This document shows, piece after piece, positions 10,680 through 27,151 of a stretch of DNA of 64,000 bases (position 1 is the stretch's first letter; the number at the start of each line of letters is the position of its first letter). The DNA is from Escherichia coli. GTDB taxonomy: Bacteria > Pseudomonadota > Gammaproteobacteria > Enterobacterales > Enterobacteriaceae. The position numbers were made by a program, and so were the translations under genes. The DNA lies in the NCBI RefSeq assembly GCF_003991155.1, contig NZ_CP031295.1; one strand, written 5' to 3'. The notes under the pieces were generated by a model. It was not told the origin of the DNA. It searched no databases and worked only from the letters and a program-made list of their open reading frames with translations.

Positions 10680-10702
10680 GTTCTCATCTCCCTTTTTTAT
10701 TG

Positions 10703-10718
10703 CTGTATGTATATACAG
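10703..10718. promoter_or_regulatory. LexA box (SOS operator) upstream of impC
   Basis: CTGTATGTATATACAG fits the CTGT-N8-ACAG consensus, about 25 bp upstream of the impC start. Confidence 0.75.
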
Positions 10719-11072
10719 TATTCTAATAACTGAATCCACACACAGTCAAATGTCATTATTGTGACTAAAAAACGCTCAATTCTCTGAGAGTGTGGCTGTA
10801 TGCCTGCTGTGGACTGCTGTGTCCAGCTTATCCACAGCATTTTGCGCACGGTTCTGTGAATAAAATACCTGGTTACCCAGGCCGTGCCGGCACGTTAACC
10901 GGGCTGCATCCGATGCAAGTGTGTCGCTGTCGCCGGCCTCCTCACCCGGTCACGTTTCGTCGTTCCTCCTCCACGCGCTGCGGCTTCGGGGCCGCACCTG
11001 CATTCGTATGCGGTCGCCCGGTTACAGGTGCGGCACGGCCTGATGGAGGCCGCATGTGAGAGGAGAATTCCC

Positions 11073-11999
11073 ATGCCAAACTGGTGCTCGAATCGTATGC
11101 ATTTTTCTGGTGAACCGGCACAGATTGCTGAGATTAAACGACTGGCCAGCGGTGCCGTCACACCGCTTTATCGCCGCGCCACAAATGAAGGTATTCAGCT
11201 GTTTCTGGCCGGAAGTGCCGGACTTCTGCAGACCACTGAAGATGTGCAGTTTGAACCGTGCCCCGGACTGACGGATGCCGGACGTGGTGTTGTATCGCCG
11301 GAGAATATCGCGTTCACCCGCTGGCTGACACACCTGCAGAACGGTGTACTGCTGGATGAGCAAAACTGCCTGATGCTGCATGAACTCTGGCTGCAGAGTG
11401 GTACTGGCCAGCGTCGCTGGGAAGGATTACCGGATGAGGTCAGGGAAACCATCACCGTGCATTTCACCGCAAAAAGAGGTGACTGGTGTGGCTTCTGGAG
11501 TAACGAGGATGTATCGGTGTGGTGGAACCGTCTGTGTGACAATGTACTGCCGGAAAAAACCATGCCGTTTGACCTGCTGACGGTTCTGCCCACCCGCCTG
11601 GATGTTGAAGTGAATGGCTTTAACGGTGGTGTTCTGAACGGTGTTCCTTCTGCGTATCACTGGTATACGGAACAGTATGGCGTGAAGTGGCCTGTGGGGT
11701 ATGAGGTGAATATCAGCCGTCAGGGAGAAAACTTCATTCAAGTGGATTTCGACACGCCGTGGTGTCAGCCGGAAAGCAACGTTGTTGCAGAATTAAGCCG
11801 CCGTTTCGGCTGCACGCTGGAGCACTGGTACGCCGAACAGGGCTGCAATTTCTGTGGCTGGCAGCGATATGAGCGTGGAGAGCTTGTTGATGTGCTGTGG
11901 GGGGAACTGGAATGGTCTTCCCCGACAGATGATGATGAGCTGCCGGAAGTCACCGCGCCGGAGTGGATAGTCGACAAGGTGGCGCATTACGGGGGATGA
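11073..11999 (+). CDS. conserved leading-region protein, Cys/Trp-rich, unknown function (308 aa)
   Basis: ORF with GAGAGGAG RBS; many W and C residues (PNWCSNRMHF, WCGFWSNEDVSVWWNRLC); no enzymatic motif recognised. Confidence 0.65.
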   Translation: MPNWCSNRMHFSGEPAQIAEIKRLASGAVTPLYRRATNEGIQLFLAGSAGLLQTTEDVQFEPCPGLTDAGRGVVSPENIAFTRWLTHLQNGVLLDEQNCLMLHELWLQSGTGQRRWEGLPDEVRETITVHFTAKRGDWCGFWSNEDVSVWWNRLCDNVLPEKTMPFDLLTVLPTRLDVEVNGFNGGVLNGVPSAYHWYTEQYGVKWPVGYEVNISRQGENFIQVDFDTPWCQPESNVVAELSRRFGCTLEHWYAEQGCNFCGWQRYERGELVDVLWGELEWSSPTDDDELPEVTAPEWIVDKVAHYGG

Positions 12000-12012
12000 A
12001 GTATGACGGAGA

Positions 12013-12038
12013 CGGGCGGGCAACCGCCCGTTTCTTTT
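12013..12038 (+). terminator. rho-independent terminator
   Basis: GGGCGGGCAACCGCCCG hairpin followed by TTTCTTTT. Confidence 0.6.
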
Positions 12039-12383
12039 CCGACAAAGGATGTCGCCGTGCTCCTCTTTTTACTGCGCCGGCTGACGCGGCGCGGCAGGAA
12101 CGCTGCCTGTGGTCAGTGTCCCGCGTCCGGCGGGCACGGGACGGGCGCTTTTACTGCTCCCGGCTGGCACCGGTGACAGTGTACGCCAGCCTGTCGCCCT
12201 TTTCTGATGAACGCCCTTCAAGCCGCTTTCGCGGCATATTCTCGCCGTCAAAAAGACGACGGCTGCGATATTCCACGGTCGGCCTGACCCGTTACCGGAC
12301 GCGGTGAACAGCCCACAGGCAGCGGGGAACGGGCACCACAGGGGTGCCCTCCCGGTGCCCTCTGTAAGAGAAGGAGCGTTGTT

Positions 12384-13067
12384 ATGTCCCGTTTTGTCCT
12401 TGGTAACTGCATCGATGTTATGACGCGTATCCCTGATAACGCCATTGATTTCATATTAACTGACCCGCCATATCTCGTCGGTTTTCGTGACCGTTCCGGG
12501 CGCACCATCGCCGGCGATAAAACCGATGAATGGCTGCAACCGGCCTGTAATGAAATGTACCGCGTACTCAAAAAAGACGCGCTGATGGTGAGCTTCTACG
12601 GCTGGAACCGCGTCGATCGCTTTATGGCCGCCTGGAAAAATGCGGGATTCAGCGTTGTTGGTCACCTGGTCTTCACCAAAAACTACACATCGAAGGCCGC
12701 ATATGTGGGCTATCGCCACGAATGCGCCTACATCCTGGCAAAAGGCCGTCCACGTCTGCCACAAAACCCGCTGCCGGACGTGCTGGGCTGGAAATATTCT
12801 GGCAATCGTCATCACCCGACGGAAAAGCCCGTTACCAGCCTGCAACCGCTGATTGAGAGCTTCACACACCCGAACGCAATTGTGCTGGACCCGTTTGCAG
12901 GCAGCGGCTCAACCTGCGTCGCCGCCCTCCAGTCCGGACGCCGGTATATCGGTATCGAGCTGCTTGAGCAGTATCACCGTGCCGGGCAGCAACGCCTTGC
13001 CGCCGTGCAACGGGCCATGCAGCAGGGGGCCGCGAATGATGACTGGTTTATGCCGGAGGCTGCGTAA
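12384..13067 (+). CDS. orphan DNA methyltransferase, beta-class (motif IV before motif I)
   Basis: DPPY motif (ILTDPPYLVGF) near the N-terminus and SAM-binding FAGSGST near the C-terminus; no adjacent restriction gene. Confidence 0.85.
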   Translation: MSRFVLGNCIDVMTRIPDNAIDFILTDPPYLVGFRDRSGRTIAGDKTDEWLQPACNEMYRVLKKDALMVSFYGWNRVDRFMAAWKNAGFSVVGHLVFTKNYTSKAAYVGYRHECAYILAKGRPRLPQNPLPDVLGWKYSGNRHHPTEKPVTSLQPLIESFTHPNAIVLDPFAGSGSTCVAALQSGRRYIGIELLEQYHRAGQQRLAAVQRAMQQGAANDDWFMPEAA

Positions 13068-13289: not shown

Positions 13290-13302
13290 GAAGGAGACGA
13301 GA

Positions 13303-13737
13303 ATGTACGGAACATGCGAAACGCTATGCCGGGAGCTGGCAGCAAAGTATCCGGGAGACGCGCCGCTGATGCTGGTTATCTGGTCCCCGGAAGAGATTCA
13401 GGCACTGGCTGACGGTATGGAAATTTCTCTGACCGATCATGAAATCAGGACCGTCCTGGCGCGCATGGAGGACATCCCGGAAGACCAGCGGACTGAATCC
13501 GGTATTTCTTCCGCCGCGGTGATGGAGATTATCAGCAACGTGAGCGAAAACCGCCAGGTGACCGTCCCTGCTGAACTGCTGGCGTCCCTGATTCAGACCG
13601 CTGAACAGGCACTGTGGAAACGTGAGTGGGCCGCCCGTGATAACGGCCTCGCCGTCCCGGAATGCGTTACCCGCCGTCAGGCGGTGGTTAATCAGGCCCG
13701 CACCCTGCTGAAAAACAACACACACGAAAACAACTGA
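13303..13737 (+). CDS. conserved leading-region protein (144 aa), paralog of 15453..15875
   Basis: Shares N-terminal MY-x-T, SLTD-x-E and RQVTVPA motifs with the 140-aa protein at 15453; GGAG RBS. Confidence 0.65.
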
Positions 13738-13787
13738 TGTTATCGCCGCCTGCCCTGCGGGCGGCGATACAGGGAGAACGCTTAATC

Positions 13788-14564
13788 ATGAACGAAAACA
13801 GCACGCTGAACGCACTGATTTGTCGTCACGCCCGTAACCTGCTGCTGGCGCAGGGCTGGCCGGAAGAGACGGATGTTGACCAGCGAAATCCGAACTATCC
13901 GGGCTGGATCAGCATTTACGTGCGGCTGGATGCGCCCCGGCTGGCGACGTTACTTATCAACCGTCACGGCGGCGTACTGCCGCCGCTCCTGGCCTCCGCC
14001 ATTCAGAGACTGACCGGAACCGGGGCGGAACTGGTACTGTCCGGCAGTCAGTGGCAGTCGCTGCCGGTACTTCCGGCAGACGGAACGCAGGTGTCTTTCC
14101 CGTATGCCGGAGAATGGCTGACCGAAGACGAAATCAGGGCTGTTCTTGATGCGGTGCACGATGCGGTACGAAGCATCTGTTACCAGGTGGCAGAAGATGC
14201 GCGGCGTATCCGTGCGGCGCTGACCACCACCGGTCAGACGTTGCTGACCCGCCAGACGCGCCGCTTTCGCCTGGTCGTGAAGGAAAGCGATCACCCCTGC
14301 TGGCTCGATGAAGATGACGAAAACCTGCCCGTGGTGCTCGATGCCATCGTGAACCGGGGAGCACGTTTTTCGTCGGTGGAAATGTATCTGGTCAGTGAGT
14401 GTATTGAGCATATCCTGTCCAGTGGGCTGGCCTGCGATGTGCTGCGTATACCGGATGAACCGCCCCGCCGCTGGTTTGACCGTGGTGTTCTGCGGGAGGT
14501 GGTCCGGGAAGCCCGGACCGAAATCCGCAGCATGGCGGATGCCCTGGCAAAAATCCGGAAATGA
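13788..14564 (+). CDS. conserved leading-region protein (258 aa), unknown function
   Basis: Long ORF; start placed at MNENSTLN (ATG 13788) just downstream of a hairpin; no motif recognised. Confidence 0.6.
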
Positions 14565-14571
14565 TGACGAT

Positions 14572-14596
14572 GGCGGGGAAAATCCCCGCCTTTTTC
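14572..14596 (+). terminator. rho-independent terminator
   Basis: GGCGGGGAAAATCCCCGCC hairpin followed by TTTTT. Confidence 0.7.
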
Positions 14597-14980
14597 CTGC
14601 CGGTCCCCGGACAGAGCACAAAGGAAGTCGCCGCCGGCTCCGCTTTACCCGGCCATGCAGGGCATGGCCTTGTGGTTTTTCAGTTATGTGGCCTCAGCGT
14701 CGTGTGCGGGCTGTGCCGTGCCTCCATCTTAGCCGGGCTGGCGTTGATGCAAGGGTACGCTTCGCCGCTGCGGTCACCCGGTCCCTCCTTCCCGTCTGCC
14801 GTGATTTTCCGGTCGTTCACCCGCTCAGATTTCGCGGTCTCACCCTGCAACTCCCGTCAGCCGTGTGCGTCAGGCTGCGGCTTCCCTTGCGCCCCTGCAT
14901 CCCCGCCTGTTCGCCCGGCTTTTATGGAGGCACGGCACCGCCCGGTGTCGCGGAATATGTGAACAACGGAGGAAAACATC

Positions 14981-15406
14981 ATGCAATATGCGAAACCTGT
15001 CACTCTGAATGTTGAAGAGTGCGACCGTCTCTCCTTTCTGCCGTATCTGTTTGGCAACGATTTTCTGTATGCCGAGGCGTATGTGTACGCGCTGGCGCAA
15101 AAAATGATGCCGGAATATCAGGGAGGCTTCTGGCACTTCATCCGCCTACCGGACGGTGGCGGTTACATGATGCCGGATGGCGACCGTTTCCACATGGTGA
15201 ACGGTGCAAACTGGTTTGACCGTACCGTGAGTGCTGATGCCGCAGGCATCATCCTGACCTCCCTTGTGATTAACCGCCAGTTGTGGCTGTACCACGACAG
15301 CGGGGATGCAGGACTGACCCAGCTTTACCGGATGCGCGATGCGCAGTTGTGGCGTCACATCGAATTTCACCCCGAATGCAACGCGATTTACGCGGCTCTG
15401 GACTGA
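14981..15406 (+). CDS. klcA: KlcA/ArdB-family antirestriction protein
   Basis: 141 aa; [12 protein letters not shown]...[17 protein letters not shown]...[10 protein letters not shown] resembles KlcA/ArdB as recalled. Confidence 0.8.
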
Positions 15407-15452: not shown

Positions 15453-15875
15453 ATGTACTGTACTGTTAAAGAAATTATCCGCGAAGTGCTGGATACAGAC
15501 GTGCCGGACAGTGAATGCGTTTTTGCCGTAGTGCTGACCCGTGGGGATGTGCGTCACATAGCCCAGGACTGGAGTCTGACAGACGATGAGCTGGAAACCG
15601 TCATGCAGCGGCTGGACGATGCCTTTGAATATGGTGCGGATGTCAGCGTTGTTCACGGCGTTGTTCGTGAACTGATGGAAGAAAAGCGCGCCAGCCGTCA
15701 GGTGACAGTCCCGGCGGTGATGCTGGAAAAAGTGATGGCGCTGGCAGGCAGTGAAATGAAGCGCCTGTATGCCGTCGGGAGTGAGAACGGGGGCGACGGT
15801 GACGCATTCGTCAGGGAGGAACGCGAAGCAATGGACGTTGTGTTACAGGCGCTGGACGGGGAGACGATGTCATGA
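15453..15875 (+). CDS. conserved leading-region protein (140 aa), paralog of 13303..13737
   Basis: Shared motifs with the 144-aa protein (SLTDDELETV, RQVTVPAVMLEKV). Confidence 0.65.
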   Translation: MYCTVKEIIREVLDTDVPDSECVFAVVLTRGDVRHIAQDWSLTDDELETVMQRLDDAFEYGADVSVVHGVVRELMEEKRASRQVTVPAVMLEKVMALAGSEMKRLYAVGSENGGDGDAFVREEREAMDVVLQALDGETMS

Positions 15876-16063
15876 ATATCAGCACAGAAACCCGCGAAAT
15901 TCTGCGTAATTACAGGGCCGTGATTAATGCGCGGCGTCGTGAAATGGGGCAGAAACCGCTCACCACCGCGCAGATTGTTGATGAAATCTGCGATTTTGTG
16001 GCGAATCAGCAGGCGGTTTTCCTGGGCGGTCACTACATCTTACAGGGTAGCAGAAACAGGTGA
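15872..16063 (+). CDS. small hypothetical protein (63 aa)
   Basis: Start overlaps the previous stop (ATGTCATGA); no motif. Confidence 0.5.
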   Translation: MNISTETREILRNYRAVINARRREMGQKPLTTAQIVDEICDFVANQQAVFLGGHYILQGSRNR

Positions 16064-16224: not shown

Positions 16225-16870
16225 TGTTCCTGATGTTGTTGTTCCTTTATCTGCTGCTCTGATTCTGACTACTGCAGTGTTGTTCTGTCTGCCGGGCGCA
16301 CCTTCGGCTCCCGGCTGCCTGGCGGCATCCGGTCGTCAGGCCCGACTCCGACAGGCAGCTGCTGGCGCACCCGCCAGTCTCCGCCGAACCCGCTGGCGCG
16401 GTTTCGGGCTGTCGCTACGGTCCGATGCGTGAAAACCCCGGGCTTGCAGCGACCGTTCCGGTCGCGCCACCCTTGTCGCGCCGTGGCCTGCGCTCCCGGC
16501 ATCCCGGCAAAAGGCCGCCGGGATGTAAGGGGCAACGCCGTTTCGCGCACGCGCTCTCCGTCGTTGCGGCGGGTCCCTGCTCATTGCCTGCCGGTGCCAC
16601 ACACCCGTATGAGTCCCTGTCGCCGGGGGCTGATACAGCCACAACCTGCCGCACTGACTGTCCAGGGTAAATGAACAGCCCACAAAATTTTTTACCCAAA
16701 ACCCGGTAAAAAATTTTGCGTTCTGCCCAGGACAGGTGCGTCAGGCCGTGGCAGTGATGCCCCTTGCGGCGAAGGTTCTCAAACGGGTGAAGTTCATACC
16801 ACAGGGAATACAGCAGCAGGTTCCCGCGAAACGTCAAAACCGCGGCTCCCGAAACTCAACGGGTGATGTT
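16225..16870 (+). repeat. GC-rich structured repeat, copy 1 (Frpo/ssi-like single-strand promoter candidate)
   Basis: About 650 bp near-identical to 19510-20185 and 24965-25608; internal palindrome AAAATTTTTTACC...GGTAAAAAATTTT at 16684-16718. Confidence 0.7.
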
Positions 16871-17097
16871 CTTTAAAAATCAGGATTTATTTCAGACTCC
16901 GGCAATACGCATTTATGTGTTCTGTCAGTCATCCGGCTGGCAGGTAATGAGAACGCAGGAACAGAAGGAGGAAAACACCGGAGAACGTCAGACGCAGATA
17001 TGAAAAAAGCAGGTCAGGGACCTGCTTAATCCACACCGCAGAGACTGCACGAACAGTCTTTACGGTTTCATTAATTAACGTCATAAGAGGCTAAATT

Positions 17098-17328
17098 ATG
17101 ACAGTAAGTATTGTTTCACCTTCCGCAGCGGCTGTAAAGCCCCGCCGTCATCCCCGTTTCAGACGCGAAGACATCCCCGCGCCGGAAATTGACCCCGTGC
17201 TGAAAGCCTTCGGGCGACACATTGCCCGGAGTTTTCACCGGGGGCGTGGTGTACACATCCCCGCCATGAAAAACACGGCCTTCGGGCAGGTGCTCCGCAC
17301 ACTCGAACTGAAACGCGCTTTTAACTGA
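17098..17328 (+). CDS. small basic hypothetical protein (76 aa)
   Basis: First ORF downstream of repeat copy 1; AGAGG RBS. Confidence 0.5.
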   Translation: MTVSIVSPSAAAVKPRRHPRFRREDIPAPEIDPVLKAFGRHIARSFHRGRGVHIPAMKNTAFGQVLRTLELKRAFN

Positions 17329-17379: not shown

Positions 17380-18741
17380 ATGACATTAGCAGCAATCACC
17401 ATGACCGCCCCGGAAGCCGCCAGCCCTGTGCAGATGTACCGCGCGACCTACTCACCGGATGACAACAAACTGCGCCTGTATGCCGTGTCACGTCTTGACC
17501 CGGAGACGTATAAAAAAGTGCATGATGCCGGTTTCCGCTGGGCACCAAAACAGGCGCTGTTTGTCGCGCCAGCCTGGACACCGGGCCGGGAAGACGTGCT
17601 CCTCTCACTTGCCGGAGAGATTGAGGATGAAGACAGCACGCTCGCTGAACGTCAGGAAGCACGGGCGGAGCGGTTTACCGGATACAGCGGAAAGCGGGCC
17701 AGTGAATCCGCACAGGCACTTGATGAAGTGGAAAGACTGGCCGCGATGATCCCGCCCGGTCAGCCCATTCTTGTGGGGCATCACAGCGAACGCCGCGCCC
17801 GTCGTGATGCGCAGCGTATTGAAAACGGCATGAAACGAGCCGTGATGCTCTTTGAACGTGCGGAATACTGGGAAGAGCGGGCGCGGTCGGCACTGCTTCA
17901 CGCGAAGTATAAAGAACGTCCGGACGTTCGCTGGCGTCGTATCAAAAAAATCGAAGCTGATTTGCGCAAGGCTGAAAAGACCATCGCGCAGTCGCAGAAA
18001 TATCTGACGATGTGGCGGGCTGAATCGCTGGATCTGAATATGGCAAAACTCATCAGCAGTCATGACCATATCAGCGCCTGTTTCCCGCTGGATACGTATC
18101 CGCGCCCGGCAGAAAAAAGCCAGTATGAAGGAAGTCGATCGTTATGGTCGGCCCTGGATGATGACATCATCACCACGGAGCAGGCCCGCGAAATTGCGAT
18201 CCGCTGTCATGAACGGCAGATTCAGCGTCAGCAACGCTGGGTTAACCACTATCAGAACCGCCTGATCTATGAGCGTGCCATGCTGGACGAAAGCGGCGGC
18301 GTGGTTACCCGGACACAGGATTTTGAGCCGGGCGGACAGGTTTTCAGCCGGGGCGAGTGGCTGACTATCATCCGCGTGAACAAAAGCAACGGGGCGGTGA
18401 GTTCAGTCACAACGCCGAATTACAGTTTTCTCGGGTACAGCGGCACGATGAAAGTGACGCCCGATCGCATTACGGACTACAAAGCACCATCGGCAGAAGA
18501 GGCTGCCGTCGCCAGTCAGGCCGCTAAGCGTCCGCCGGTAGTCAACTATCCGGGGGAAGGTTTCCGGGAAATGACAAAGGCACAGTGGGCCGCCCTGCCC
18601 CGGGACTGTAAGGCCGTGCGCAGTGTGGCAGAAGCAGAAGACCACGGGGCATACCGGTACCGCCGCACAATGGACAATAATTTCCGCCTGGTGAATGTGT
18701 ATATCTCCGACATGAAAATCACGGAAATCCCACAGAAATAA
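17380..18741 (+). CDS. conserved leading-region protein (453 aa), unknown function
   Basis: Long ORF with GGAGAA RBS; Arg/Glu-rich central region; no catalytic motif recognised. Confidence 0.7.
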   Translation: MTLAAITMTAPEAASPVQMYRATYSPDDNKLRLYAVSRLDPETYKKVHDAGFRWAPKQALFVAPAWTPGREDVLLSLAGEIEDEDSTLAERQEARAERFTGYSGKRASESAQALDEVERLAAMIPPGQPILVGHHSERRARRDAQRIENGMKRAVMLFERAEYWEERARSALLHAKYKERPDVRWRRIKKIEADLRKAEKTIAQSQKYLTMWRAESLDLNMAKLISSHDHISACFPLDTYPRPAEKSQYEGSRSLWSALDDDIITTEQAREIAIRCHERQIQRQQRWVNHYQNRLIYERAMLDESGGVVTRTQDFEPGGQVFSRGEWLTIIRVNKSNGAVSSVTTPNYSFLGYSGTMKVTPDRITDYKAPSAEEAAVASQAAKRPPVVNYPGEGFREMTKAQWAALPRDCKAVRSVAEAEDHGAYRYRRTMDNNFRLVNVYISDMKITEIPQK

Positions 18742-18788: not shown

Positions 18789-19352
18789 ATGCACAGTCAG
18801 TTAAGAGAACGTATCCGGCTGATGCGCGCAAGGCTGGATAACGCCGCGCCGGTTGCTGAAATCCGGGCTGAATCTCAGCTTTTTGTGACTCCTGCCCCGG
18901 TCTGTGATCGCCTGGTGATGCTGGCGGAGATCAGCAACCGTGATCACATTCTGGAACCCTCTGCCGGCACCGGGGCCATACTGCGGGCGATTCGGGATAC
19001 CGCGCCGGGGGCCATGTGTGATGCGGTGGAAATCAACAGCGGGCTGGTCCGGTATCTGCGGGAAAATTTTAACGGTGTCAGGGTTCAGTGTGGCGACTTC
19101 ATGGAATGGCAGCCGGTGCAGTATTACAGCCGGGTTATCATGAATCCGCCGTTCAGCCACGGGCAGGATATCCGGCATATCCTGCGGGCCTTTTCCCTGT
19201 TGCGTCCGGGGGGCGTGCTGGTCGCCGTCTGTCTCAACGGACCACGCCAGCAGGAGAAGCTGTTACCGTTTTCTGACGTCCGCGAGGAGCTGCCGCGCGG
19301 CACGTTTGCTTATACCGATGTCCCGACGATGATTATTCGTCTGCGTGCCTGA
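18789..19352 (+). CDS. small orphan DNA methyltransferase, gamma-like order (motif I before motif IV)
   Basis: SAM-binding LEPSAGTGAIL followed by VIMNPPFSHGQD (NPPF); only 187 aa. Confidence 0.75.
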   Translation: MHSQLRERIRLMRARLDNAAPVAEIRAESQLFVTPAPVCDRLVMLAEISNRDHILEPSAGTGAILRAIRDTAPGAMCDAVEINSGLVRYLRENFNGVRVQCGDFMEWQPVQYYSRVIMNPPFSHGQDIRHILRAFSLLRPGGVLVAVCLNGPRQQEKLLPFSDVREELPRGTFAYTDVPTMIIRLRA

Positions 19353-20212: not shown

Positions 20213-20752
20213 ATGGCAGTTCGTGGCATTAACAAGGTCATTCTCGTAGGACGCCTGGGAAAAGATCCGGAAGTCCGTTACATCCCCAACGGGGGCGCAG
20301 TGGCAAACCTGCAGGTGGCCACATCAGAAAGCTGGCGTGACAAACAGACGGGGGAGATGCGGGAGCAGACAGAATGGCATCGTGTGGTGCTGTTCGGCAA
20401 GCTCGCGGAAGTGGCAGGTGAATATCTGCGCAAGGGCGCGCAGGTCTACATCGAAGGTCAGCTTCGCACCCGTAGCTGGGAGGATAACGGTATCACCCGT
20501 TACGTCACCGAAATTCTTGTTAAGACCACGGGCACCATGCAGATGCTGGGACGTGCCGCAGGTGCTCAGACTCAGCCGGAAGAGGGGCAACAGTTCAGCG
20601 GTCAGTATCAGCCGGAACCACAGGCGGAGGCCGGTACGAAAAAAGGAGGCGCAAAAACGAAAGGCCGTGGACGTAAGGCCACGCAGCCGGAGTCGCAGCC
20701 GCAACCGCCGGAGAGTGACGATTACGGGTTTTCAGATGATATCCCGTTCTGA
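20213..20752 (+). CDS. ssb: plasmid single-stranded DNA-binding protein
   Basis: [25 protein letters not shown]-fold N-terminus, Gly/Gln-rich linker, acidic tail DDIPF; AGGAGG RBS. Confidence 0.95.
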
Positions 20753-20766
20753 ACGACTGACTGTGA

Positions 20767-21042
<276 letters not shown>

Positions 21043-21106: not shown

Positions 21107-23065
21107 ATGTCAGTTACAGAGTCTAAGGTAAAAACGGAGCGTAAATCCAGCCGTAAACCTGCAAAAACGCAGGAAACAGTCCTGTCGGCCCTGCTGGCGG
21201 AGACGGCTGAAGTGAGCGTGCCGCTGGCCTCGCTGATTAAGTCACCGCTGAATGTGCGCACGGTGCCGTATTCTGCGGAGTCCGTCAGCGAACTGGCAGA
21301 GTCCATTAAGGGCGTCGGCCTGCTGCAGAATCTGGTTGTTCATGCCCTGCCAGGTGACCGTTACGGTGTCGCCGCAGGCGGTCGCCGACTGGCAGCACTC
21401 AACATGCTGGCAGAGCGCAACATCCTTCCGGCTGACTGGCCTGTCCGCGTGAAGGTTATTCCGCAGGAACTGGCGACTGCCGCATCAATGACTGAAAACG
21501 GTCATCGTCGGGATATGCACCCTGCCGAACAGATTGCCGGATTCCGCGCAATGGCGCAGGAAGGCAAAACACCTGCACAAATCGGTGATTTGCTGGGCTA
21601 TTCACCCCGCCACGTTCAGCGAATGCTGAAACTGGCAGACCTTGCGCCTGTCATCCTCGATGCGCTGGCAGAAGACCGCATCACCACAGAGCACTGTCAG
21701 GCGCTGGCGCTGGAGAACGACACCGCGCGTCAGGTGCAGGTGTTTGAAGCCGCCTGTCAGTCGGGATGGGGCGGTAAACCGGAAGTACAGACCATTCGTC
21801 GTCTGGTGACCGAAAGTGAAGTGGCGGTGGCGGGGAACAGTAAATTCCGCTTCGTGGGGGCTGATGCCTTCTCGCCAGACGAACTGCGCACCGATTTGTT
21901 CAGCGACGACGAGGGTGGCTATGTGGACTGCGTGGCGCTCGATGCCGCCCTGCTGGAAAAACTCCAGGCTGTCGCAGAGTTCCTTCGGGAAGCCGAAGGC
22001 TGGGAATGGTGCGCCGGACGCATGGAGCCTGTCGGTGAGTGCCGTGAGGATGCCGGAACATACCGCTGTCTGCCGGAGCCGGAAGCGGTGCTGACCGAGG
22101 CGGAAGAAGAACGTCTGAACGAACTGATGGCACGTTACGACGCGCTGGAAAACCAGTGTGAGGAATCTGACCTGCTGGAAGCAGAAATGAAGCTGATGCG
22201 CTGCATGGCGAAGGTCAGAGCGTGGACGCCGGAGATGCGTGCCGGAGGTGGAGTGGTGGTGTCCTGGCGTTATGGAAACGTATGTGTCCAGCGTGGTGTG
22301 CAGTTACGCAGTGAGGATGATGCGGCTGACGACGCTGACCGCACGGAACAGGTGCAGGAAAAAGCGTCAGTGGAGGAAATCAGTCTGCCACTGCTGACGA
22401 AAATGTCCTCAGAGCGCACGCTGGCAGTCCAGGCAGCACTGATGCAGCAACCGGACAAATCCCTGACACTGCTGGCATGGACGCTCTGCCTGAATGTGTT
22501 TGGCAGCGGAGCGTACAGTAAACCAGCACAAATCAGCCTGGAATGTAAACATTATTCGCTGACCAGCGATGCGCCATCGGGGAAGGAAGGTGCCGCATTC
22601 ATGGCGCTGATGGCAGAAAAAGCCCGTCTTGCTGCCCTGTTACCGGAGGGATGGTCACGGGACATGACGACATTCCTGTCACTCAGTCAGGAGGTGCTGT
22701 TATCCCTGCTCAGTTTCTGCACCGCATGCAGCCTTAACGGTGTCCAGACCCGTGAGTATGGTCACACGTCACGCAGTCCGCTGGACACGCTGGAGAGCGC
22801 CATCGGTTTTCACATGCGCGACTGGTGGCAGCCGACAAAAGCAAACTTCTTCGGACACCTGAAAAAGCCGCAGATTATCGCAGCCCTGAATGAGGCAGGA
22901 CTGTCCGGTGCTGCACGGGATGCAGAGAAGATGAAGAAAGGTGATGCGGCTGAACATGCAGAGCACCATATGAAAGACAACCGCTGGGTGCCTGGCTGGA
23001 TGTGTGCACCACATCCACAGACGGATACCACTGAACGCACCGATAACCTGGCTGATGCCGCCTGA
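21107..23065 (+). CDS. large ParB/Srx-domain protein of the leading region (652 aa)
   Basis: N-terminal ParB-like motif GLLQNLVVHALPGDRYGVAAGGRRLAAL; long acidic and Cys-containing C-terminal extension. Confidence 0.8.
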   Translation: MSVTESKVKTERKSSRKPAKTQETVLSALLAETAEVSVPLASLIKSPLNVRTVPYSAESVSELAESIKGVGLLQNLVVHALPGDRYGVAAGGRRLAALNMLAERNILPADWPVRVKVIPQELATAASMTENGHRRDMHPAEQIAGFRAMAQEGKTPAQIGDLLGYSPRHVQRMLKLADLAPVILDALAEDRITTEHCQALALENDTARQVQVFEAACQSGWGGKPEVQTIRRLVTESEVAVAGNSKFRFVGADAFSPDELRTDLFSDDEGGYVDCVALDAALLEKLQAVAEFLREAEGWEWCAGRMEPVGECREDAGTYRCLPEPEAVLTEAEEERLNELMARYDALENQCEESDLLEAEMKLMRCMAKVRAWTPEMRAGGGVVVSWRYGNVCVQRGVQLRSEDDAADDADRTEQVQEKASVEEISLPLLTKMSSERTLAVQAALMQQPDKSLTLLAWTLCLNVFGSGAYSKPAQISLECKHYSLTSDAPSGKEGAAFMALMAEKARLAALLPEGWSRDMTTFLSLSQEVLLSLLSFCTACSLNGVQTREYGHTSRSPLDTLESAIGFHMRDWWQPTKANFFGHLKKPQIIAALNEAGLSGAARDAEKMKKGDAAEHAEHHMKDNRWVPGWMCAPHPQTDTTERTDNLADAA

Positions 23066-24270: not shown

Positions 24271-24491
24271 TGCGGCAACAATCACACGGATTTCCCGTGA
24301 ACGGTCTGAATGAGCGGATTATTTTCAGGGAAAGTGAGTGTGGTCAGCGTGCAGGTATATGGGCTATGATGTGCCCGGCGCTTGAGGCTTTCTGCCTCAT
24401 GACGTGAAGGTGGTTTGTTGCCGTGTTGTGTGGCAGAAAGAAGATAGCCCCGTAGTAAGTTAATTTTCATTAACCACCACGAGGCATCCCT

Positions 24492-24704
24492 ATGTCTAGT
24501 CCACATCAGGATAGCCTCTTACCGCGCTTTGCGCAAGGAGAAGAAGGCCATGAAACTACCACGAAGTTCCCTTGTCTGGTGTGTGTTGATCGTGTGTCTC
24601 ACACTGTTGATATTCACTTATCTGACACGAAAATCGCTGTGCGAGATTCGTTACAGAGACGGACACAGGGAGGTGGCGGCTTTCATGGCTTACGAATCCG
24701 GTAA
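24492..24704 (+). CDS. mok: mok-like overlapping leader ORF of the hok locus (flmC-like)
   Basis: ORF overlapping hok in another frame, as in hok/sok-type loci. Confidence 0.45.
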
Positions 24705-24708
24705 GTAG
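24550..24708 (+). CDS. hok: Hok-family membrane toxin (F FlmA-like, 52 aa)
   Basis: [52 protein letters not shown] read directly from 24550. Confidence 0.85.
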
Positions 24709-24964
24709 CAACCTGGAGGCGGGCGCAGGCCCGCCTTTTCAGGACTGATGCTGGTCTGACTACTGAAGCGCCTTTATAAAGGGGCTGCTGGTTCGCCGGT
24801 AGCCCCTTTCTCCTTGCTGATGTTGTACGGGCATGAACAACCTGACTTCAGGAAGGTCGTTTCCCTTCAGGAACGGGGATGAACGCGCGCCTGCGGCGCC
24901 CGTTCTTTTCCCCCGCCTTCTCTGGTTATGGCCTGTCAGAAATCACATCACCTTCCCTGTGATT

Positions 24965-25608
24965 ATTCTCTTTTTCTTCCTGCTCTGATTCTGACTACTG
25001 CAGTGTTGTCCTGTCTGCCGGGCGTACCTTCGGCTCCCGGCTGCCTGGCGGCATCCGGTCGTCAGGCCCGACTCCGACAGGCAGCTGCTGGCGCACCTGC
25101 CAGTCTCCGCCGAACCCGCTGGCGCGGTTTCGGGCTGTCGCTACGGTCCGATGCGTGAAAACCCCTGGCTTGCAGCGACCGTTCCGGTCGCGCCGCCTCT
25201 GTCGCGCCGTGACCTGCGCTCCCGGCATCCCGGCAAAAGGCGCCGGGATGTAAGGCGCAACGCCGTTTCGCAAACCGCGCTTCACGTCGTTGCGGCGGGT
25301 CCCTGCCCGTTGTTGTGTCCGGTGCCATTCACCAGTTTAAGCCCCTGTCGCCGGGGGCATAGACAGCCACAACCGTCTCCGCCAGTCCAGGGGTGAAATG
25401 CACATCCCGCAAAACTTTTTGCCCAGAAGCAGGCAAAAACTTTTGCGGTCTGCCCCCGGACAGTCGTTTCCGGCCGTGGCAGTGATGCCCCATGCGGCGA
25501 AGGTTCTCAAACAGGTGATGGTGAATACCGGAGGGAACAAAAGGCAGGTCCCCGCAAAACGTCAAAACCGCGGCTCCCGAAACTCAACAGATGATGGGGG
25601 CTGAAAAC
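24965..25608 (+). repeat. GC-rich structured repeat, copy 3 (Frpo/ssi-like)
   Basis: Near-identical to copy 2; palindrome GCAAAACTTTTTGCC...GGCAAAAACTTTTGC at 25407-25448. Confidence 0.7.
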
Positions 25609-25628
25609 CAGAGAGAGGAGAAAGCAGG

Positions 25629-25916
25629 ATGAGTACCCGAAATATCCACGTTAACACCGCGTCGTACACGCTTCTTGTTGCCGGGAAGAAAAAAAACACC
25701 GGGGAAGAGTGGGACGTCCTGGAATTCAGCAGCCTGACTGAGCTGAAAAAATATCGCAAAAGCCACCCGGAAAAGATGGCCTTCAGTTATAGCTACGCGC
25801 TCAGTCAGGGTGTGGATAAGCAGTTCCGCCATATCAACATTGCGGAAGCCGATCACTTCAAACAGTTCCTGCGTCAGATTAAGCGTGCCGGCCTCGATAT
25901 CCGGGCGATCTGCTGA
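25629..25916 (+). CDS. small conserved hypothetical protein (95 aa)
   Basis: First ORF after repeat copy 3; GAGAGGAG RBS. Confidence 0.6.
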   Translation: MSTRNIHVNTASYTLLVAGKKKNTGEEWDVLEFSSLTELKKYRKSHPEKMAFSYSYALSQGVDKQFRHINIAEADHFKQFLRQIKRAGLDIRAIC

Positions 25917-26033
25917 CCGGATGTGATGAATATCCCTCCTGATTGTTGCAATCTTGTTAATGGAGATCGGGGGGATGATATTAAGCGGAAAAATTTTTTA
26001 TTAAATTTATTCTTTCATAAAGGAGTAGCTGTT

Positions 26034-26855
26034 ATGCGATTAGCTTCCCGTTTTGGTCGGTATAATTCCATCCGCCGTGAACGTCCTTTAACGGATGATG
26101 AATTAATGCAGTTCGTGCCTTCGGTATTTTCCGGTGATAAACATGAGTCCCGGAGTGAACGTTATACGTATATTCCAACAATCAATATCATCAATAAGTT
26201 ACGTGATGAAGGTTTCCAGCCATTCTTTGCCTGTCAGAGTCGGATTCGTGATTTGGGACGTCGCGAATACAGTAAACATATGTTACGTCTTCGCAGGGAA
26301 GGGCATATTAACGGACAGGAAGTTCCTGAAATTATCCTGCTTAATTCACATGATGGTTCATCCAGTTATCAGATGATCCCCGGAATTTTTCGTTTTGTCT
26401 GCACAAATGGCCTGGTGTGCGGAAATAATTTTGGCGAAATCCGCGTTCCACATAAAGGTGATATTGTCGGGCAGGTTATCGAGGGAGCGTATGAAGTGCT
26501 CGGTGTCTTTGATAAGGTCACTGATAATATGGAGGCGATGAAAGAAATTCATCTTAACAGTGACGAGCAACATTTATTTGGCAGAGCTGCACTGATGGTC
26601 AGGTATGAAGATGAAAATAAAACGCCAGTGACACCTGAACAGATAATTACTCCCCGTCGTCGGGAAGACAAACAGAACGATCTCTGGACAACCTGGCAGC
26701 GGGTTCAGGAGAATATGATAAAAGGTGGATTATCGGGGCGAAGTGCCTCCGGGAAAAATACCAGGACAAGAGCCATTACAGGTATTGATGGTGATATAAG
26801 AATCAACAAGGCGTTATGGGTGATTGCCGAACAGTTCAGAAAGTGGAAGTCATGA
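26034..26855 (+). CDS. conserved leading-region protein (273 aa), unknown function
   Basis: ORF with AAGGAG RBS; start placed at MRLASRFGRY; family often annotated only as a DUF in F-like plasmids (recollection, unverified). Confidence 0.7.
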   Translation: MRLASRFGRYNSIRRERPLTDDELMQFVPSVFSGDKHESRSERYTYIPTINIINKLRDEGFQPFFACQSRIRDLGRREYSKHMLRLRREGHINGQEVPEIILLNSHDGSSSYQMIPGIFRFVCTNGLVCGNNFGEIRVPHKGDIVGQVIEGAYEVLGVFDKVTDNMEAMKEIHLNSDEQHLFGRAALMVRYEDENKTPVTPEQIITPRRREDKQNDLWTTWQRVQENMIKGGLSGRSASGKNTRTRAITGIDGDIRINKALWVIAEQFRKWKS

Positions 26856-26866
26856 TAATATAAGTA

Positions 26867-26894
26867 AAGCCCCGAAAAAATTTTCGGGGCTTTA
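26867..26894. terminator. bidirectional hairpin terminator
   Basis: AAAGCCCCGAAAAAATTTTCGGGGCTTT perfect palindrome between convergent genes. Confidence 0.65.
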
Positions 26895-27151
26895 CTTATA
26901 TTATCATTTTTCGGCATTGCTGTGTCGTCTGATATACCTCAATTTCATCAACCGGATTTCCGGTTGTCTGTAAATATTGTGCCCGCGAAAAATGGTCTGG
27001 CAGGAGGCTGCACAGTTACCGGGTATATATAAGATGGGTTCCCGCTTCGCGGGGCTTCGGCCAGTCAGTATTGTCACTCATATGATATTTTTGTGTGTGG
27101 CCTTCCATGCCGCTTTTGCGGCATAACCGGTATCTGACAATGTCTGTAAGA

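What the first reader, a model, noticed from the sequence alone, without database searches (positions are those of the whole stretch)
10680..27150. Leading-region island packed with anti-defence and establishment genes plus about eleven unknowns
Every gene from 11073 to 26855 is on the + strand, transcribed toward oriT, so the transferred strand (window minus strand, 5' end at nic about 27752) is the template. That is the geometry needed for expression from incoming single-stranded DNA. Recognisable members are two orphan methyltransferases of different classes, KlcA/ArdB, SSB, PsiB/PsiA, a 652-aa ParB-like protein and hok/mok. Interleaved are ORFs with no recognisable function (11073, 13068, 13303, 13788, 15453, 15872, 17098, 17380, 20809, 25629, 26034). 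These are the best candidates for undescribed anti-restriction, anti-CRISPR or other early-establishment functions.
Basis: partly seen in the sequence, partly recalled or inferred. Interest (0 to 1): 0.7.

Follow-up and report, generated by a model that had tools for sequence, protein, structure and literature searches.

The report
Known IncF plasmid leading region
This is the well-studied "leading region" of an F-type conjugative plasmid: the first DNA to enter a new host, carrying protective genes that switch on early plus about eleven conserved genes of unknown role, all already catalogued in thousands of plasmids.

Summary
An F-type nic site puts the 5' end of the transferred strand at 27752. 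All roughly 20 protein genes from 11073 to 26855 are on the + strand. The named genes are all confirmed: M.EcoGIX-type and TaqI-like methyltransferases, KlcA/ArdB, SSB, PsiB/PsiA, the 652-aa ParB-like protein and hok/mok.

This is the classic IncF leading region. At least 5000 PLSDB plasmids match it, and it is 94-98% identical to F and 96% identical to IncI1 pESBL over the shared blocks.

There are three ~650-nt Frpo-type repeats, plus hairpins homologous to the klcA-type and M.EcoGIX-type single-strand promoters. Together they divide the island into five or six operons.

The eleven unknown ORFs are real genes (dN/dS 0.05-0.33 where countable). They stay functionally unannotated, and five of them belong to families Samuel & Burstein (2024) already listed as uncharacterised and leading-region-enriched.

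One addition of my own: in 89 of 91 long relatives, the DUF3560 gene (17380) and the adjacent 187-aa methyltransferase (18789) are a single fused protein. The two are therefore probably partners. Their operon, absent from F and pESBL, also carries the AS-pc01 antisense RNA.

Verdict: already known, low interest.

The parts
8726..10739 (-). Distal boundary of the island: umuC-like Y-family polymerase (8726-9997), umuD (9997-10434) and dinI-like gene (10431-10739), all in the opposite orientation.
   Evidence: ORFs. RefSeq annotation of the 99.8%-identical plasmid NZ_CP117035. The same proteins occur in pESBL. This matches the oriT-to-umuCD island boundary described in PMC11541004.
10878..11042 (-). 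Candidate extra class-2-like ssDNA-promoter hairpin upstream of DUF1281/yfdA. Unproven.
   Evidence: Folding the T-strand of 10740-11072 gives z = -4.6. The outer stem blocks align with the klcA-upstream element of the window, F and Klebsiella, with a shorter apex (A5).
11073..11999 (+). Unknown 1: DUF1281 plus DUF1281_C protein (YfdA/YubB family, Api92-like), 308 aa.
   Evidence: Pfam E 1e-47 and 5e-14. PDB 2IJR 'hypothetical protein Api92', E 2e-49. phrog_37043, unknown function. dN/dS against F is 0.33.
12057..12377 (-). Homologue of the class 3 ssDNA promoter that drives M.EcoGIX in pESBL and is conserved in F (ssp3).
   Evidence: T-strand fold dG -98 kcal/mol, z = -6.2. 96.6% identical to F and inside the 95.8% block shared with pESBL. 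Literature. The RefSeq CDS at 11996-12307 that overlaps it has dN/dS 0.97.
12384..13067 (+). Orphan beta-class N6-adenine DNA methyltransferase of the M.EcoGIX family (DPPY motif), 227 aa.
   Evidence: Pfam N6_N4_Mtase E 1e-37. NCBIfam PRK13699, 501 bits. 216 of 227 aa identical to the pESBL methylase. dN/dS 0.07. M.EcoGIX biochemistry is described in PMC7736820.
13068..13289 (+). Unknown 2: 73-aa ORF.
   Evidence: phrog_4830, unknown function. No Pfam, NCBIfam or PDB match. 4 synonymous and 3 non-synonymous changes against F. The exact sequence occurs on at least 1000 public contigs.
13303..13737 (+). Unknown 3: DUF1380 protein (YcgB family), 144 aa.
   Evidence: Pfam DUF1380 E 6e-51. dN/dS 0.25. 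Paralogue of the 15453 gene (28% identity, E 3e-10).
13788..14564 (+). Unknown 4: 258-aa protein (YffA/YchA family). No domain. The family is narrow and restricted to Enterobacteriaceae.
   Evidence: phrog_8919, unknown function. Only 413 homologues, and the best 120 are all at least 83% identical. dN/dS 0.22.
14710..14944 (-). Homologue of the class 2 ssDNA promoter (F ssp2, upstream of klcA/yfgB). In F this element is also a replication roadblock resolved by UvrD.
   Evidence: T-strand fold z = -3.1. 95.7% identical to F. 95.2% identical to the pESBL ardA-upstream element as well. Literature.
14981..15406 (+). KlcA/ArdB-type anti-restriction protein, 141 aa.
   Evidence: Pfam Antirestrict E 1e-24. 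phrog_10132, anti-restriction. 3 non-synonymous changes against F yfgB.
15453..15875 (+). Unknown 5: second DUF1380 paralogue, 140 aa.
   Evidence: Pfam DUF1380 E 0.004. phrog_9024. dN/dS 0.14.
15872..16063 (+). Unknown 6: 63-aa ORF.
   Evidence: No family hit. 5 synonymous and 1 non-synonymous change against F. Occurs on at least 1000 contigs.
16225..16880 (-). Frpo/ssi-type (class 1) ssDNA-promoter repeat, copy 1. T-strand hairpin at about 16576-16820.
   Evidence: Direct-repeat families D1, D2 and D4. 93.5% identical to F Frpo2. Fold dG -83 kcal/mol, z = -8.2. Covariation across 11 copies from four plasmids.
17004..17103 (-). AS-pc01 antisense sRNA, covering the Shine-Dalgarno sequence and start codon of orf76.
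   Evidence: Rfam RF02875, 98.9 bits against a gathering score of 79. On the minus strand a sigma-70-like site at 17138-17110 and a terminator at 17027-17007 bracket it.
17098..17328 (+). Unknown 7: 76-aa basic ORF, first gene after repeat 1.
   Evidence: No family hit. Conserved in Klebsiella IncFIIK with 26 synonymous and 8 non-synonymous changes, dN/dS 0.07.
17380..18741 (+). Unknown 8: DUF3560 protein (YdbA family), 453 aa. Here it is the free-standing N-terminal module of what is a DUF3560-methyltransferase fusion protein in most relatives.
18789..19352 (+). Second orphan methyltransferase: a 187-aa class I Rossmann catalytic domain (NPPF motif) with no room for a separate target-recognition domain.
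   Evidence: Pfam MTS E 7e-5. M.TaqI is the best PDB sequence match, E 4.5e-4 alone and 1.4e-8 with the fusion-family profile. PHROG hits fall in the methyltransferase domains of giant phage proteins.
19524..20191 (-). Frpo-type (class 1) repeat, copy 2, upstream of ssb (the Frpo2/ssp1b position). Hairpin at about 19884-20123.
   Evidence: Fold dG -91.5 kcal/mol, z = -11.6. Covariation.
20213..20752 (+). Plasmid SSB, 179 aa.
   Evidence: NCBIfam PRK13732, 379 bits against a cut-off of 265.
20803..21042 (+). Unknown 9: DUF905 protein (YfjA/YubL; YkfF fold), 77-79 aa.
   Evidence: Pfam DUF905 E 3e-29. PDB 2HJJ YkfF, E 1e-17. F YfjA is produced early in transconjugants from Frpo2.
21107..23065 (+). 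ParB-like 652-aa protein, orthologue of F YfjB (HerB).
   Evidence: Pfam ParB_N plus HTH_ParB. 93.2% nucleotide identity to F over the full length, dN/dS 0.18. HerB function is described in PMC13370423.
23120..24270 (+). psiB (23120-23554) and psiA (23551-24270), SOS inhibition.
   Evidence: NCBIfam PRK13701 at 277 bits and PRK13704 at 419 bits, both above cut-off.
24376..24708 (+). hok/mok/sok (flm-type) type I toxin-antitoxin locus. hok is at 24550-24708 and mok at 24492-24704.
   Evidence: Rfam sok, 88.9 bits against a gathering score of 59. Hok peptide confirmed by translation. A conventional promoter-like site lies at 24341-24370.
24951..25608 (-). Frpo-type (class 1) repeat, copy 3, upstream of ygeA (the Frpo1/ssp1a position). 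Hairpin at about 25305-25545.
   Evidence: 96.5% identical to F Frpo1. Fold dG -78.4 kcal/mol, z = -7.7.
25629..25916 (+). Unknown 10: YgeA, 95 aa.
   Evidence: No family hit. 98.6% identical to F. In F it is induced early in transconjugants, and its deletion lowers transfer to 3.9%.
26034..26855 (+). Unknown 11: YgeB, DUF932, 273 aa.
26856..26903 (.). Perfect 20-bp-stem bidirectional terminator between ygeB and gene X.
27152..27742 (-). SLT lytic transglycosylase (gene X/orf169), the only gene between the island and oriT.
   Evidence: annotation. NCBIfam IagB-like, E 7e-33.
27741..27770 (-). oriT nic region. The nick falls between 27753 and 27752 on the minus (transferred) strand.
   Evidence: Sequence read.

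Best explanation
Window 10680-27150 is the leading region of an F-like (MOBF, IncFIB/FIC-type) conjugative plasmid. The relaxase nicks the minus strand at 27753/27752, and that strand enters the recipient 5' end first, so this island arrives first as single-stranded DNA.

On the entering strand, long imperfect hairpins fold: three Frpo/ssi class 1 copies, one class 2 element (klcA type), one class 3 element (M.EcoGIX type), and possibly a second class-2-like element. These hairpins mimic double-stranded promoters, and host RNA polymerase transcribes the + sense genes downstream of each.

This gives a short burst of protective and establishment proteins:
- an ssDNA-acting M.EcoGIX-type methyltransferase;
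- the KlcA/ArdB restriction inhibitor;
- SSB with PsiB/PsiA, which suppress SOS;
- the ParB-like HerB/YfjB protein, which reprograms host transcription;
- YgeA/YgeB, needed for efficient F transfer;
- in this plasmid lineage, a second methyltransferase together with its DUF3560 partner.

Complementary-strand synthesis then removes the hairpins and switches the island off. hok/sok, read from a conventional promoter, guards the segment between two repeat copies against deletion.

Shown here: the anatomy, the homology, hairpin stability and covariation, and that the ORFs are coding. Taken from published experiments on 94-98% identical sequences: ssDNA-promoter activity, early expression in transconjugants, and the functions of KlcA, M.EcoGIX, PsiB, SSB and HerB. 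Inferred only: the roles of the eleven unknowns.
For: - F-type nic site with the tra genes on the far side.
- All protein genes co-oriented, bounded by oppositely oriented umuDC/dinI and gene X.
- At least 5000 PLSDB plasmids match, 844 of them over at least 80% of the region, with best hits at 99.8%.
- 94.6%, 93.9% and 97.7% identity to the F leading region in three blocks. 95.8% identity to pESBL over 8748-16134.
- Three 650-nt repeats, 84-96% identical to F Frpo1 and Frpo2.
- T-strand hairpins with z = -8.2, -11.6 and -7.7. Class 3 z = -6.2 and class 2 z = -3.1.
- 22 of 45 consensus pairs keep pairing through changes on both sides, across 11 copies from four plasmids.
- No excess of conventional sigma-70 sites (11 found, 10.3 expected) and none placed upstream of an operon on the + strand.
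- Gene identities.
- Published experiments.
Against: - Nothing in the sequence contradicts this reading.
- The -35 and -10 hexamers inside the hairpins were not mapped here.
- A hairpin z-score is symmetric between strands and does not prove promoter activity.
- The orf76-DUF3560-methyltransferase operon behind repeat 1 is absent from both experimentally profiled plasmids (F and pESBL), so its early induction is inferred from promoter homology alone.
- Wen et al. state that not all pESBL leading-region genes are induced. DUF1281 may be one of the silent ones.
Confidence: 0.93

Rival explanations
1. The eleven unknown ORFs are annotation noise or decaying cargo with no role in establishment.
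For: No function could be assigned by NCBIfam, PADLOC, PHROGs, Pfam (DUF families only), PDB sequence search or fold search. Some RefSeq ORFs in this region really are spurious. Substitution counts for orf63, orf73, YgeA and YfjA are too small to be decisive.
Against: dN/dS is 0.05-0.33 for the unknowns, against about 1 or more for the spurious ORFs. orf76, DUF3560 and methyltransferase 2 keep their order and reading frames at 71-80% nucleotide identity in Klebsiella. Each exact protein occurs on at least 1000 contigs. DUF3560 folds with pLDDT 92. F ygeA, yfjA and yfjB are expressed, and ygeA has a transfer phenotype.
Confidence: 0.04
2. The island is a maintenance or defence module: ParB for partition, the methyltransferases as halves of restriction-modification systems, and hok/sok for stability. 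On this view it is not an early-expression anti-defence island.
For: It contains a ParB-family protein, two methyltransferases and a toxin-antitoxin locus.
Against: No restriction endonuclease and no ParA lie in the island, and none of the ten unknown ORFs scanned against PADLOC gave a hit. The true partition genes (parM and a partition/stability-family gene) lie outside the island beyond umuC. HerB does not position the F plasmid. M.EcoGIX-type enzymes are orphan, ssDNA-specific and silent in established cells.
Confidence: 0.02
3. The three 650-nt repeats are remnants of a mobile element or recombination scars, not promoters. The co-orientation of the genes merely reflects co-orientation with replication.
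For: The copies are mosaic: the apex of repeat 1 resembles F Frpo2, while repeats 2 and 3 resemble F Frpo1. A GC-rich 200-nt 5' extension is absent from F.
Against: Each copy sits directly upstream of an operon. They are homologous to elements whose deletion abolishes early expression in F. Paired positions show compensatory changes across IncF, IncFIIK and IncI1 copies. The GC-rich part is shared with the pESBL copies of the repeat, at positions consistent with its ssi elements.
Confidence: 0.02

Closest known systems
Leading region of plasmid F (NC_002483, about 52.5-66.2 kb), with ssDNA promoters Frpo1/ssp1a, Frpo2/ssp1b, ssp2 and ssp3
   Same: Same gene order, orientation and nic sequence. 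94-98% nucleotide identity over 10790-16189, 19732-25001 and 25159-28500. Same promoter elements at the same places. Shared genes include ygeA, ygeB, yfjA, yfjB (HerB), psiB, psiA, ssb, klcA (yfgB) and the methylase operon.
   Different: The window has an extra 2.9-kb segment (about 16860-19731) absent from F. It brings a third Frpo copy, the AS-pc01 antisense RNA, orf76, DUF3560 and a second methyltransferase. Each repeat also carries a GC-rich 200-nt 5' extension that F lacks.
Leading region of IncI1 plasmids pESBL and ColIb-P9 (ssi1-3; class 2 and class 3 ssDNA promoters; M.EcoGIX)
   Same: Window 8748-16134 is 95.8% identical to pESBL 51145-58523, covering umuDC, dinI, DUF1281, the M.EcoGIX operon and the klcA operon. 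Methyltransferase 1 is 216/227 aa identical to the pESBL enzyme. ssb to psiA is 87% identical. The experimentally mapped class 2 and class 3 promoters are therefore present here.
   Different: pESBL is a MOBP plasmid with a different oriT and relaxase. It has ardA and other genes near oriT instead of ygeA and ygeB, and it lacks the DUF3560-methyltransferase operon.
Anti-defence islands of plasmid leading regions (Samuel & Burstein, Nature 2024)
   Same: All the descriptive features are present: oriT at one end, oppositely oriented umuCD at the other, genes encoded so that the T-strand is the template, anti-restriction, anti-SOS, orphan methyltransferase, SSB and toxin-antitoxin genes, Frpo promoters, and uncharacterised families enriched in the region.
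   Different: No known anti-CRISPR gene was recognised in this particular island.
Fused DUF3560-methyltransferase proteins of other mobile elements (about 630-730 aa)
   Same: The N-terminal ~430-450 aa align with the window's DUF3560 protein over essentially its whole length (42-57% identity). The C-terminal ~160 aa align with the window's methyltransferase 2 (34-48% identity).
   Different: In the window and its enterobacterial IncF/IncFIIK relatives the two parts are separate genes 47 nt apart. The fused forms examined sit in other mobile elements among unrelated small genes.

Membership tests
Plasmid leading-region anti-defence/establishment island | Lies next to oriT/nic on the side transferred first. 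| tested here: met
   F-type nic at 27753/27752 on the minus strand, with traM, traJ and FinP beyond it.
Plasmid leading-region anti-defence/establishment island | Genes are oriented so that the transferred strand is the template. | tested here: met
   All protein genes from 11073 to 26855 are on the + strand and the T-strand is the minus strand.
Plasmid leading-region anti-defence/establishment island | Contains known anti-restriction, anti-SOS, SSB and orphan methyltransferase genes. | tested here: met
   KlcA, PsiB, PsiA, SSB and two methyltransferases.
Plasmid leading-region anti-defence/establishment island | Far boundary formed by umuCD homologues in the opposite orientation. | tested here: met
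   umuC, umuD and dinI-like genes at 8726-10739 on the minus strand.
Plasmid leading-region anti-defence/establishment island | Early, transient expression in transconjugants. | not testable with these tools
   Shown for the F and pESBL homologues in the literature. Not shown for the orf76-DUF3560-methyltransferase operon.
Class 1 ssDNA promoter (Frpo/ssi/ssp1) | Sequence homology to F Frpo1 and Frpo2. | tested here: met
   84-96% identity for all three copies.
Class 1 ssDNA promoter (Frpo/ssi/ssp1) | Long imperfect hairpin in the transferred strand, more stable than shuffled sequence and kept by compensatory changes. | tested here: met
   z = -8.2, -11.6 and -7.7. 22 of 45 pairs have changes on both sides.
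Class 1 ssDNA promoter (Frpo/ssi/ssp1) | -35 and -10 boxes reconstituted in the stem. | tested here: inconclusive
   The consensus scan of the duplex sequence finds no site in the hairpins. I did not map the mismatched-stem hexamers.
Class 1 ssDNA promoter (Frpo/ssi/ssp1) | RNA polymerase initiates on the single-stranded form only. | not testable with these tools
   Published for F Frpo1 and Frpo2.
M.EcoGIX family of ssDNA-specific methyltransferases (gene at 12384) | Beta-class N6_N4 methyltransferase of about 26 kDa with a DPPY motif, closely similar to the pESBL enzyme. | tested here: met
   Pfam E 1e-37. 'LTDPPYL' is visible in the translation. 216 of 227 aa identical to the pESBL leading-region methylase. 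That this pESBL gene is M.EcoGIX is inferred from its size, class and position.
M.EcoGIX family of ssDNA-specific methyltransferases (gene at 12384) | Methylates single strands in the SAY context. | not testable with these tools
   Literature only.
KlcA/ArdB anti-restriction | Antirestrict (PF03230) domain and orthology to F YfgB. | tested here: met
   Pfam E 1e-24. 95.7% nucleotide identity to the F orthologue, dN 0.009. Fraikin et al. state that F YfgB is 93% identical to ArdB of plasmid R64.
HerB/YfjB ParB-like host reprogrammer | ParB N-terminal (CTP-binding) domain plus HTH, about 650 aa, orthologous to F yfjB and located behind Frpo2. | tested here: met
   Pfam ParB_N plus HTH_ParB. Full-length 93.2% nucleotide identity. 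Position behind repeat 2. CTP binding and chromosome binding were not tested.
hok/sok type I toxin-antitoxin | Hok peptide, overlapping mok frame, and the Sok-complementary leader. | tested here: met
DUF3560-methyltransferase fusion family (genes at 17380 and 18789) | N-terminal ~440-aa DUF3560 module and C-terminal class I methyltransferase in one polypeptide. | tested here: not met
   Both parts are present and homologous, but they are encoded as two genes 47 nt apart. 89 of 91 long relatives are fused. This is a split variant of the family.
Known anti-phage defence systems (PADLOC) | Any protein matching a defence-system model. | tested here: not met
   No hit for ten of the eleven unknown ORFs. 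YgeB and the named genes were not scanned against PADLOC.

The most novel reading that the evidence does not exclude
The operon behind the third Frpo copy (orf76 at 17098, DUF3560 at 17380, methyltransferase at 18789) may encode a two-subunit, TaqI-like N6-adenine methyltransferase. The 187-aa catalytic subunit has no target-recognition domain. The DUF3560 protein is confidently folded, has several invariant Arg and His residues, and has no solved structural relative. It would supply nucleic-acid binding, possibly to single-stranded DNA.

On this reading the operon fires from the entering strand. After conversion to double-stranded DNA it would be shut off twice: by loss of the hairpin promoter, and by the AS-pc01 antisense RNA, which can only be made once the complementary strand exists. 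That would give many IncF and IncFIIK plasmids a second layer of restriction evasion beside the M.EcoGIX-type enzyme. Neither experimentally profiled plasmid (F, pESBL) carries this operon.
Probability: 0.3. Interest if true: 0.45.

Novelty: already known. Interest (0 to 1): 0.2.

Why it matters
The leading region decides whether a resistance plasmid survives its first minutes in a new host, so its conserved unknown genes are legitimate targets for blocking the spread of antibiotic resistance. That case has already been made and is under active experimental study for essentially identical sequences: F and pESBL, the 2024 Nature survey, the 2023-2026 work on early expression in transconjugants, and HerB. 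The scan therefore rediscovers a known system.

The practical value added here is a corrected map. It gives five or six ssDNA-promoter operons, flags spurious RefSeq ORFs lying on the promoter hairpins, and places an antisense RNA. It also offers the testable link between DUF3560 and the second methyltransferase.

Tried and rejected
Family searches:
- NCBIfam gave nothing for ten of the eleven unknown ORFs apart from one chance FabG2 hit far below cut-off. YgeB had only a sub-threshold TIGR03299 match.
- PADLOC gave nothing for the ten unknown ORFs scanned; YgeB was not scanned.
- PHROGs returned only 'unknown function' families.
- Pfam on three concatenated constructs found only DUF families. 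The Serglycin hits are an artefact of my GS linkers.
- PDB sequence search matched only DUF1281 (2IJR) and DUF905 (2HJJ), both structural-genomics entries without a function.

Structure and fold searches:
- The profile of the fusion family matched PDB only in the methyltransferase part.

Weak leads dropped:
- A PHROG hint that DUF3560 residues 258-321 resemble DUF905 (E 0.005) was not supported by BLASTP.
- YgeA against YfjA shows only a 30-residue match (E 0.004), too weak to claim.
- Neighbours of the fused DUF3560-methyltransferase genes in metagenomic contigs were unannotated and unrelated to the window's genes.

Other dead ends:
- The conventional promoter scan showed no enrichment.
- miRNA, RsmY and snoRNA hits in Rfam are below gathering scores and simply reflect hairpins and the terminator.
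- The first folding script timed out.
- The supplement of Wen et al. is not held, so I could not check whether DUF1281 is induced in pESBL.
- No paper in the library characterises DUF932, DUF3560, DUF1281, DUF1380 or DUF905.

Full report
**1. Observation check**

Reading the minus strand around 27750 gives ...TTTGCGTGGGGTGT|GGTGCTTTTGGTGG.... To my knowledge this is the F-type nic sequence. traM, traJ, the traJ 5' UTR and FinP lie beyond it.

All conserved protein-coding ORFs from 11073 to 26855 are on the + strand. On the minus strand they are flanked by umuC, umuD and a dinI-like gene (8726-10739) on one side and by the SLT 'gene X' (27152-27742) on the other. Twenty genes in one orientation is far from chance. 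Even counted as six operons it is unusual, and it is the published hallmark of leading regions.

**2. Identity of the region**

844 records cover at least 80% of the query. The best hits are 99.8% identical IncFIB/FIC-type conjugative MOBF plasmids of E. coli, Salmonella and Shigella.

Against plasmid F the window aligns in three blocks:
- 10790-16189 at 94.6%;
- 19732-25001 at 93.9%;
- 25159-28500 at 97.7%.

Against the IncI1 plasmid pESBL, window 8748-16134 is 95.8% identical and ssb to psiA is 87% identical. The region is the classical IncF leading region.

**3. Recognisable genes**

- The 227-aa methyltransferase (12384) is a beta-class N6_N4 enzyme with a DPPY motif (Pfam E 1e-37; NCBIfam PRK13699 at 501 bits). 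It is 216/227 aa identical to the pESBL leading-region methylase, which is the M.EcoGIX family of single-strand-specific m6A enzymes.
- The 187-aa enzyme (18789) is a class I Rossmann methyltransferase with an NPPF motif. Its best PDB sequence relative is M.TaqI.
- KlcA/ArdB, SSB, PsiB and PsiA are unambiguous.
- The 652-aa ParB_N plus HTH protein is the orthologue of F YfjB, with 93% nucleotide identity over the full length.
- Hok is confirmed by translation, together with the overlapping mok frame and the Rfam sok match.

**4.

*Class 1 (Frpo-type) repeats.* Three ~650-nt direct repeats lie at 16225-16880, 19524-20191 and 24951-25608, each directly upstream of an operon. They are 84-96% identical to F Frpo1 and Frpo2. 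On the transferred strand each folds into a ~240-nt imperfect hairpin that is far more stable than shuffled sequence:
- copy 1: dG -83 kcal/mol, z = -8.2;
- copy 2: dG -91.5 kcal/mol, z = -11.6;
- copy 3: dG -78.4 kcal/mol, z = -7.7.

An alignment of 11 copies from this window, F, a Klebsiella IncFIIK plasmid and pESBL gives a consensus hairpin. In 22 of its 45 pairs, pairing is kept through changes on both sides.

*Class 2 and class 3 elements.* The intergenic segment upstream of the first methyltransferase folds with z = -6.2, and the one upstream of klcA with z = -3.1. Both are 95-97% identical to the corresponding segments of F and pESBL. Wen et al. mapped class 3 and class 2 ssDNA promoters in those pESBL segments by 5'-RACE, and Fraikin et al. 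showed that ssp2 of F is a UvrD-resolved roadblock.

*Conventional promoters.* A scan for duplex sigma-70 promoters finds no excess (11 found against 10.3 expected) and none upstream of the operons. This fits an island that is silent in established cells.

*Operon map.* The island has five, possibly six, single-strand-promoter operons:
- possibly DUF1281, as a sixth operon;
- methyltransferase 1, orf73, DUF1380 and orf258;
- klcA, DUF1380 and orf63;
- orf76, DUF3560 and methyltransferase 2;
- ssb, DUF905, herB, psiB and psiA;
- ygeA and ygeB.

The conventionally promoted hok/sok locus lies between the last two repeat copies.

**5. The eleven unknowns**

*They are genes.* Against F or the Klebsiella plasmid their dN/dS is 0.05-0.33. 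Five RefSeq 'hypothetical' CDS that lie on the hairpins and repeats (11996-12307, 19504-19731, 19972-20184, 24928-25158, 25398-25604) give values near or above 1. Counts are small for orf63, orf73 and YgeA and nil for YfjA. orf76 is solid, with 26 synonymous and 8 non-synonymous changes.

*None acquires a function.*
- DUF1281 (Api92-like, PDB 2IJR), the two DUF1380 paralogues, DUF3560, DUF905 (YkfF fold, 2HJJ) and DUF932 remain domains of unknown function.
- orf73, orf258, orf63, orf76 and YgeA have no family at all.
- The ten exact sequences looked up each occur on at least 1000 public contigs.

*They are already catalogued.* Samuel & Burstein list DUF905 (rank 2), the YffA/YchA family (rank 6), DUF1380 (rank 7), DUF1281 (rank 27) and DUF3560 (rank 28) among the uncharacterised families enriched in leading regions. 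Couturier et al. showed that F YgeA and YfjA are produced from the entering strand, that deleting ygeA lowers transfer to 3.9%, and that ygeB could not be deleted.

*Structure predictions gave no lead.* The YgeB model (pLDDT 75) has no meaningful PDB neighbour.

**6. One new lead: DUF3560 and the second methyltransferase**

An exhaustive search with the 453-aa DUF3560 protein found 3885 relatives. Among the best 150 representatives, 91 are at least 600 aa long. Of those, 89 carry the whole DUF3560 protein as an N-terminal module (42-57% identity) followed by a C-terminal domain 34-48% identical to the window's methyltransferase 2. The two adjacent window genes, 47 nt apart, are therefore a split form of a widespread fused protein and very probably work together.

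Several other points fit this:
- The catalytic subunit is too short to contain a target-recognition domain.
- The DUF3560 protein folds confidently (pLDDT 92): a small alpha/beta domain, a long helical bundle carrying the conserved GQPILVGHHSERRA loop, and C-terminal beta domains.
- It has several invariant Arg and His residues and no solved structural relative.

I infer a nucleic-acid-targeting or regulatory partner, but this is not shown.

The operon is absent from F and pESBL. It is present in at least 4890 PLSDB plasmids, with a 71%-identity version in Klebsiella in which the Frpo copy and the order orf76, DUF3560, methyltransferase are conserved.

Its first gene is overlapped at the Shine-Dalgarno sequence and start codon by the Rfam family AS-pc01 on the minus strand. 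AS-pc01 has its own promoter-like site and terminator. This antisense RNA can only be made once the complementary strand exists, which suggests a second off-switch. That too is inference.

**7. Mechanism and comparison with known systems**

The best explanation is the textbook one as recently refined:
1. The T-strand enters from nic.
2. The hairpin promoters fire.
3. A burst of proteins follows: the methyltransferases, KlcA, SSB, PsiB/PsiA, HerB, YgeA/B and the unknowns.
4. Complementary-strand synthesis shuts the island off.

The anatomy, the homology and the structural conservation are shown here. Promoter activity and protein functions are taken from experiments on near-identical sequences. 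All testable membership criteria for a leading-region anti-defence island are met. Expression timing cannot be tested here.

**8. Verdict**

The finding is real and correctly interpreted, but it describes a known and intensively studied system. Its central hypothesis, that the unknown leading-region ORFs are candidate anti-defence or establishment genes, is already published. Novelty: already known. Interest: low (0.2). The residual novelty lies in the DUF3560-methyltransferase partnership, its antisense control, and a possible extra class-2-like hairpin upstream of DUF1281.

Noticed in passing
window 17004-17103 (minus strand): Rfam AS-pc01 antisense sRNA (98.9 bits against a gathering score of 79). 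It has a sigma-70-like site at 17138-17110 and a terminator at 17027-17007, and it overlaps the ribosome-binding site and ATG of orf76. It is the only clear minus-strand gene inside the island.
   Followed up: partly
window 10878-11042: The hairpin upstream of DUF1281/yfdA (z = -4.6) aligns with the klcA-upstream class 2 ssDNA promoter of the window, F and Klebsiella, but has a ~80-nt shorter apex. It may be an additional ssDNA promoter. The papers I read describe F as having four such operons and do not mention it.
   Followed up: partly
window 11996-12307, 19504-19731, 19972-20184, 24928-25158, 25398-25604: 'Hypothetical protein' CDS annotated in RefSeq records of identical plasmids lie on ssDNA-promoter hairpins and repeats. 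Their dN/dS is near or above 1, so they are probably annotation artefacts.
   Followed up: yes
window 16225-16432, 19524-19731, 24951-25158: Each Frpo-type repeat carries a ~72% GC, 200-nt 5' extension. It is absent from both F copies but present in the pESBL and Klebsiella copies. Its role is unknown.
   Followed up: partly
window 16433-16880 compared with 19732-20191 and 25159-25608: The Frpo copies are mosaics. The apex of copy 1 matches F Frpo2, while copies 2 and 3 match F Frpo1, even though copy 2 sits at the Frpo2 (ssb) position. This implies exchange between copies.
   Followed up: partly
window 8748-16134: This block (umuDC, dinI, DUF1281, the M.EcoGIX operon and the klcA operon) is 95.8% identical to the IncI1 (MOBP) plasmid pESBL. 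The distal half of the leading region is thus shared almost unchanged between plasmids with unrelated transfer systems.
   Followed up: yes
window 26856-26903: A perfect 20-bp-stem hairpin with T runs on both sides lies between the convergent genes ygeB and gene X and acts as a bidirectional terminator. It explains the weak RsmY and miRNA hits in Rfam.
   Followed up: yes
window 13788-14564: The orf258 (YffA/YchA) family is unusually narrow: 413 homologues, with the best 120 all at least 83% identical. Length varies from 235 to 260 aa, which suggests a variable internal segment.
   Followed up: no
L004 4250-6301 and L006 8001-10013: Fused DUF3560-methyltransferase genes in metagenomic contigs sit in long co-directional arrays of small unannotated genes, together with RadC, resolvase and integrase genes. 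Each is preceded by a 67-68-aa ORF that abuts or overlaps its start.
   Followed up: partly
window 28540-28651: The traJ 5' UTR and the FinP antisense RNA were detected at full length. This fits an intact FinOP fertility-inhibition target just outside the finding.
   Followed up: no
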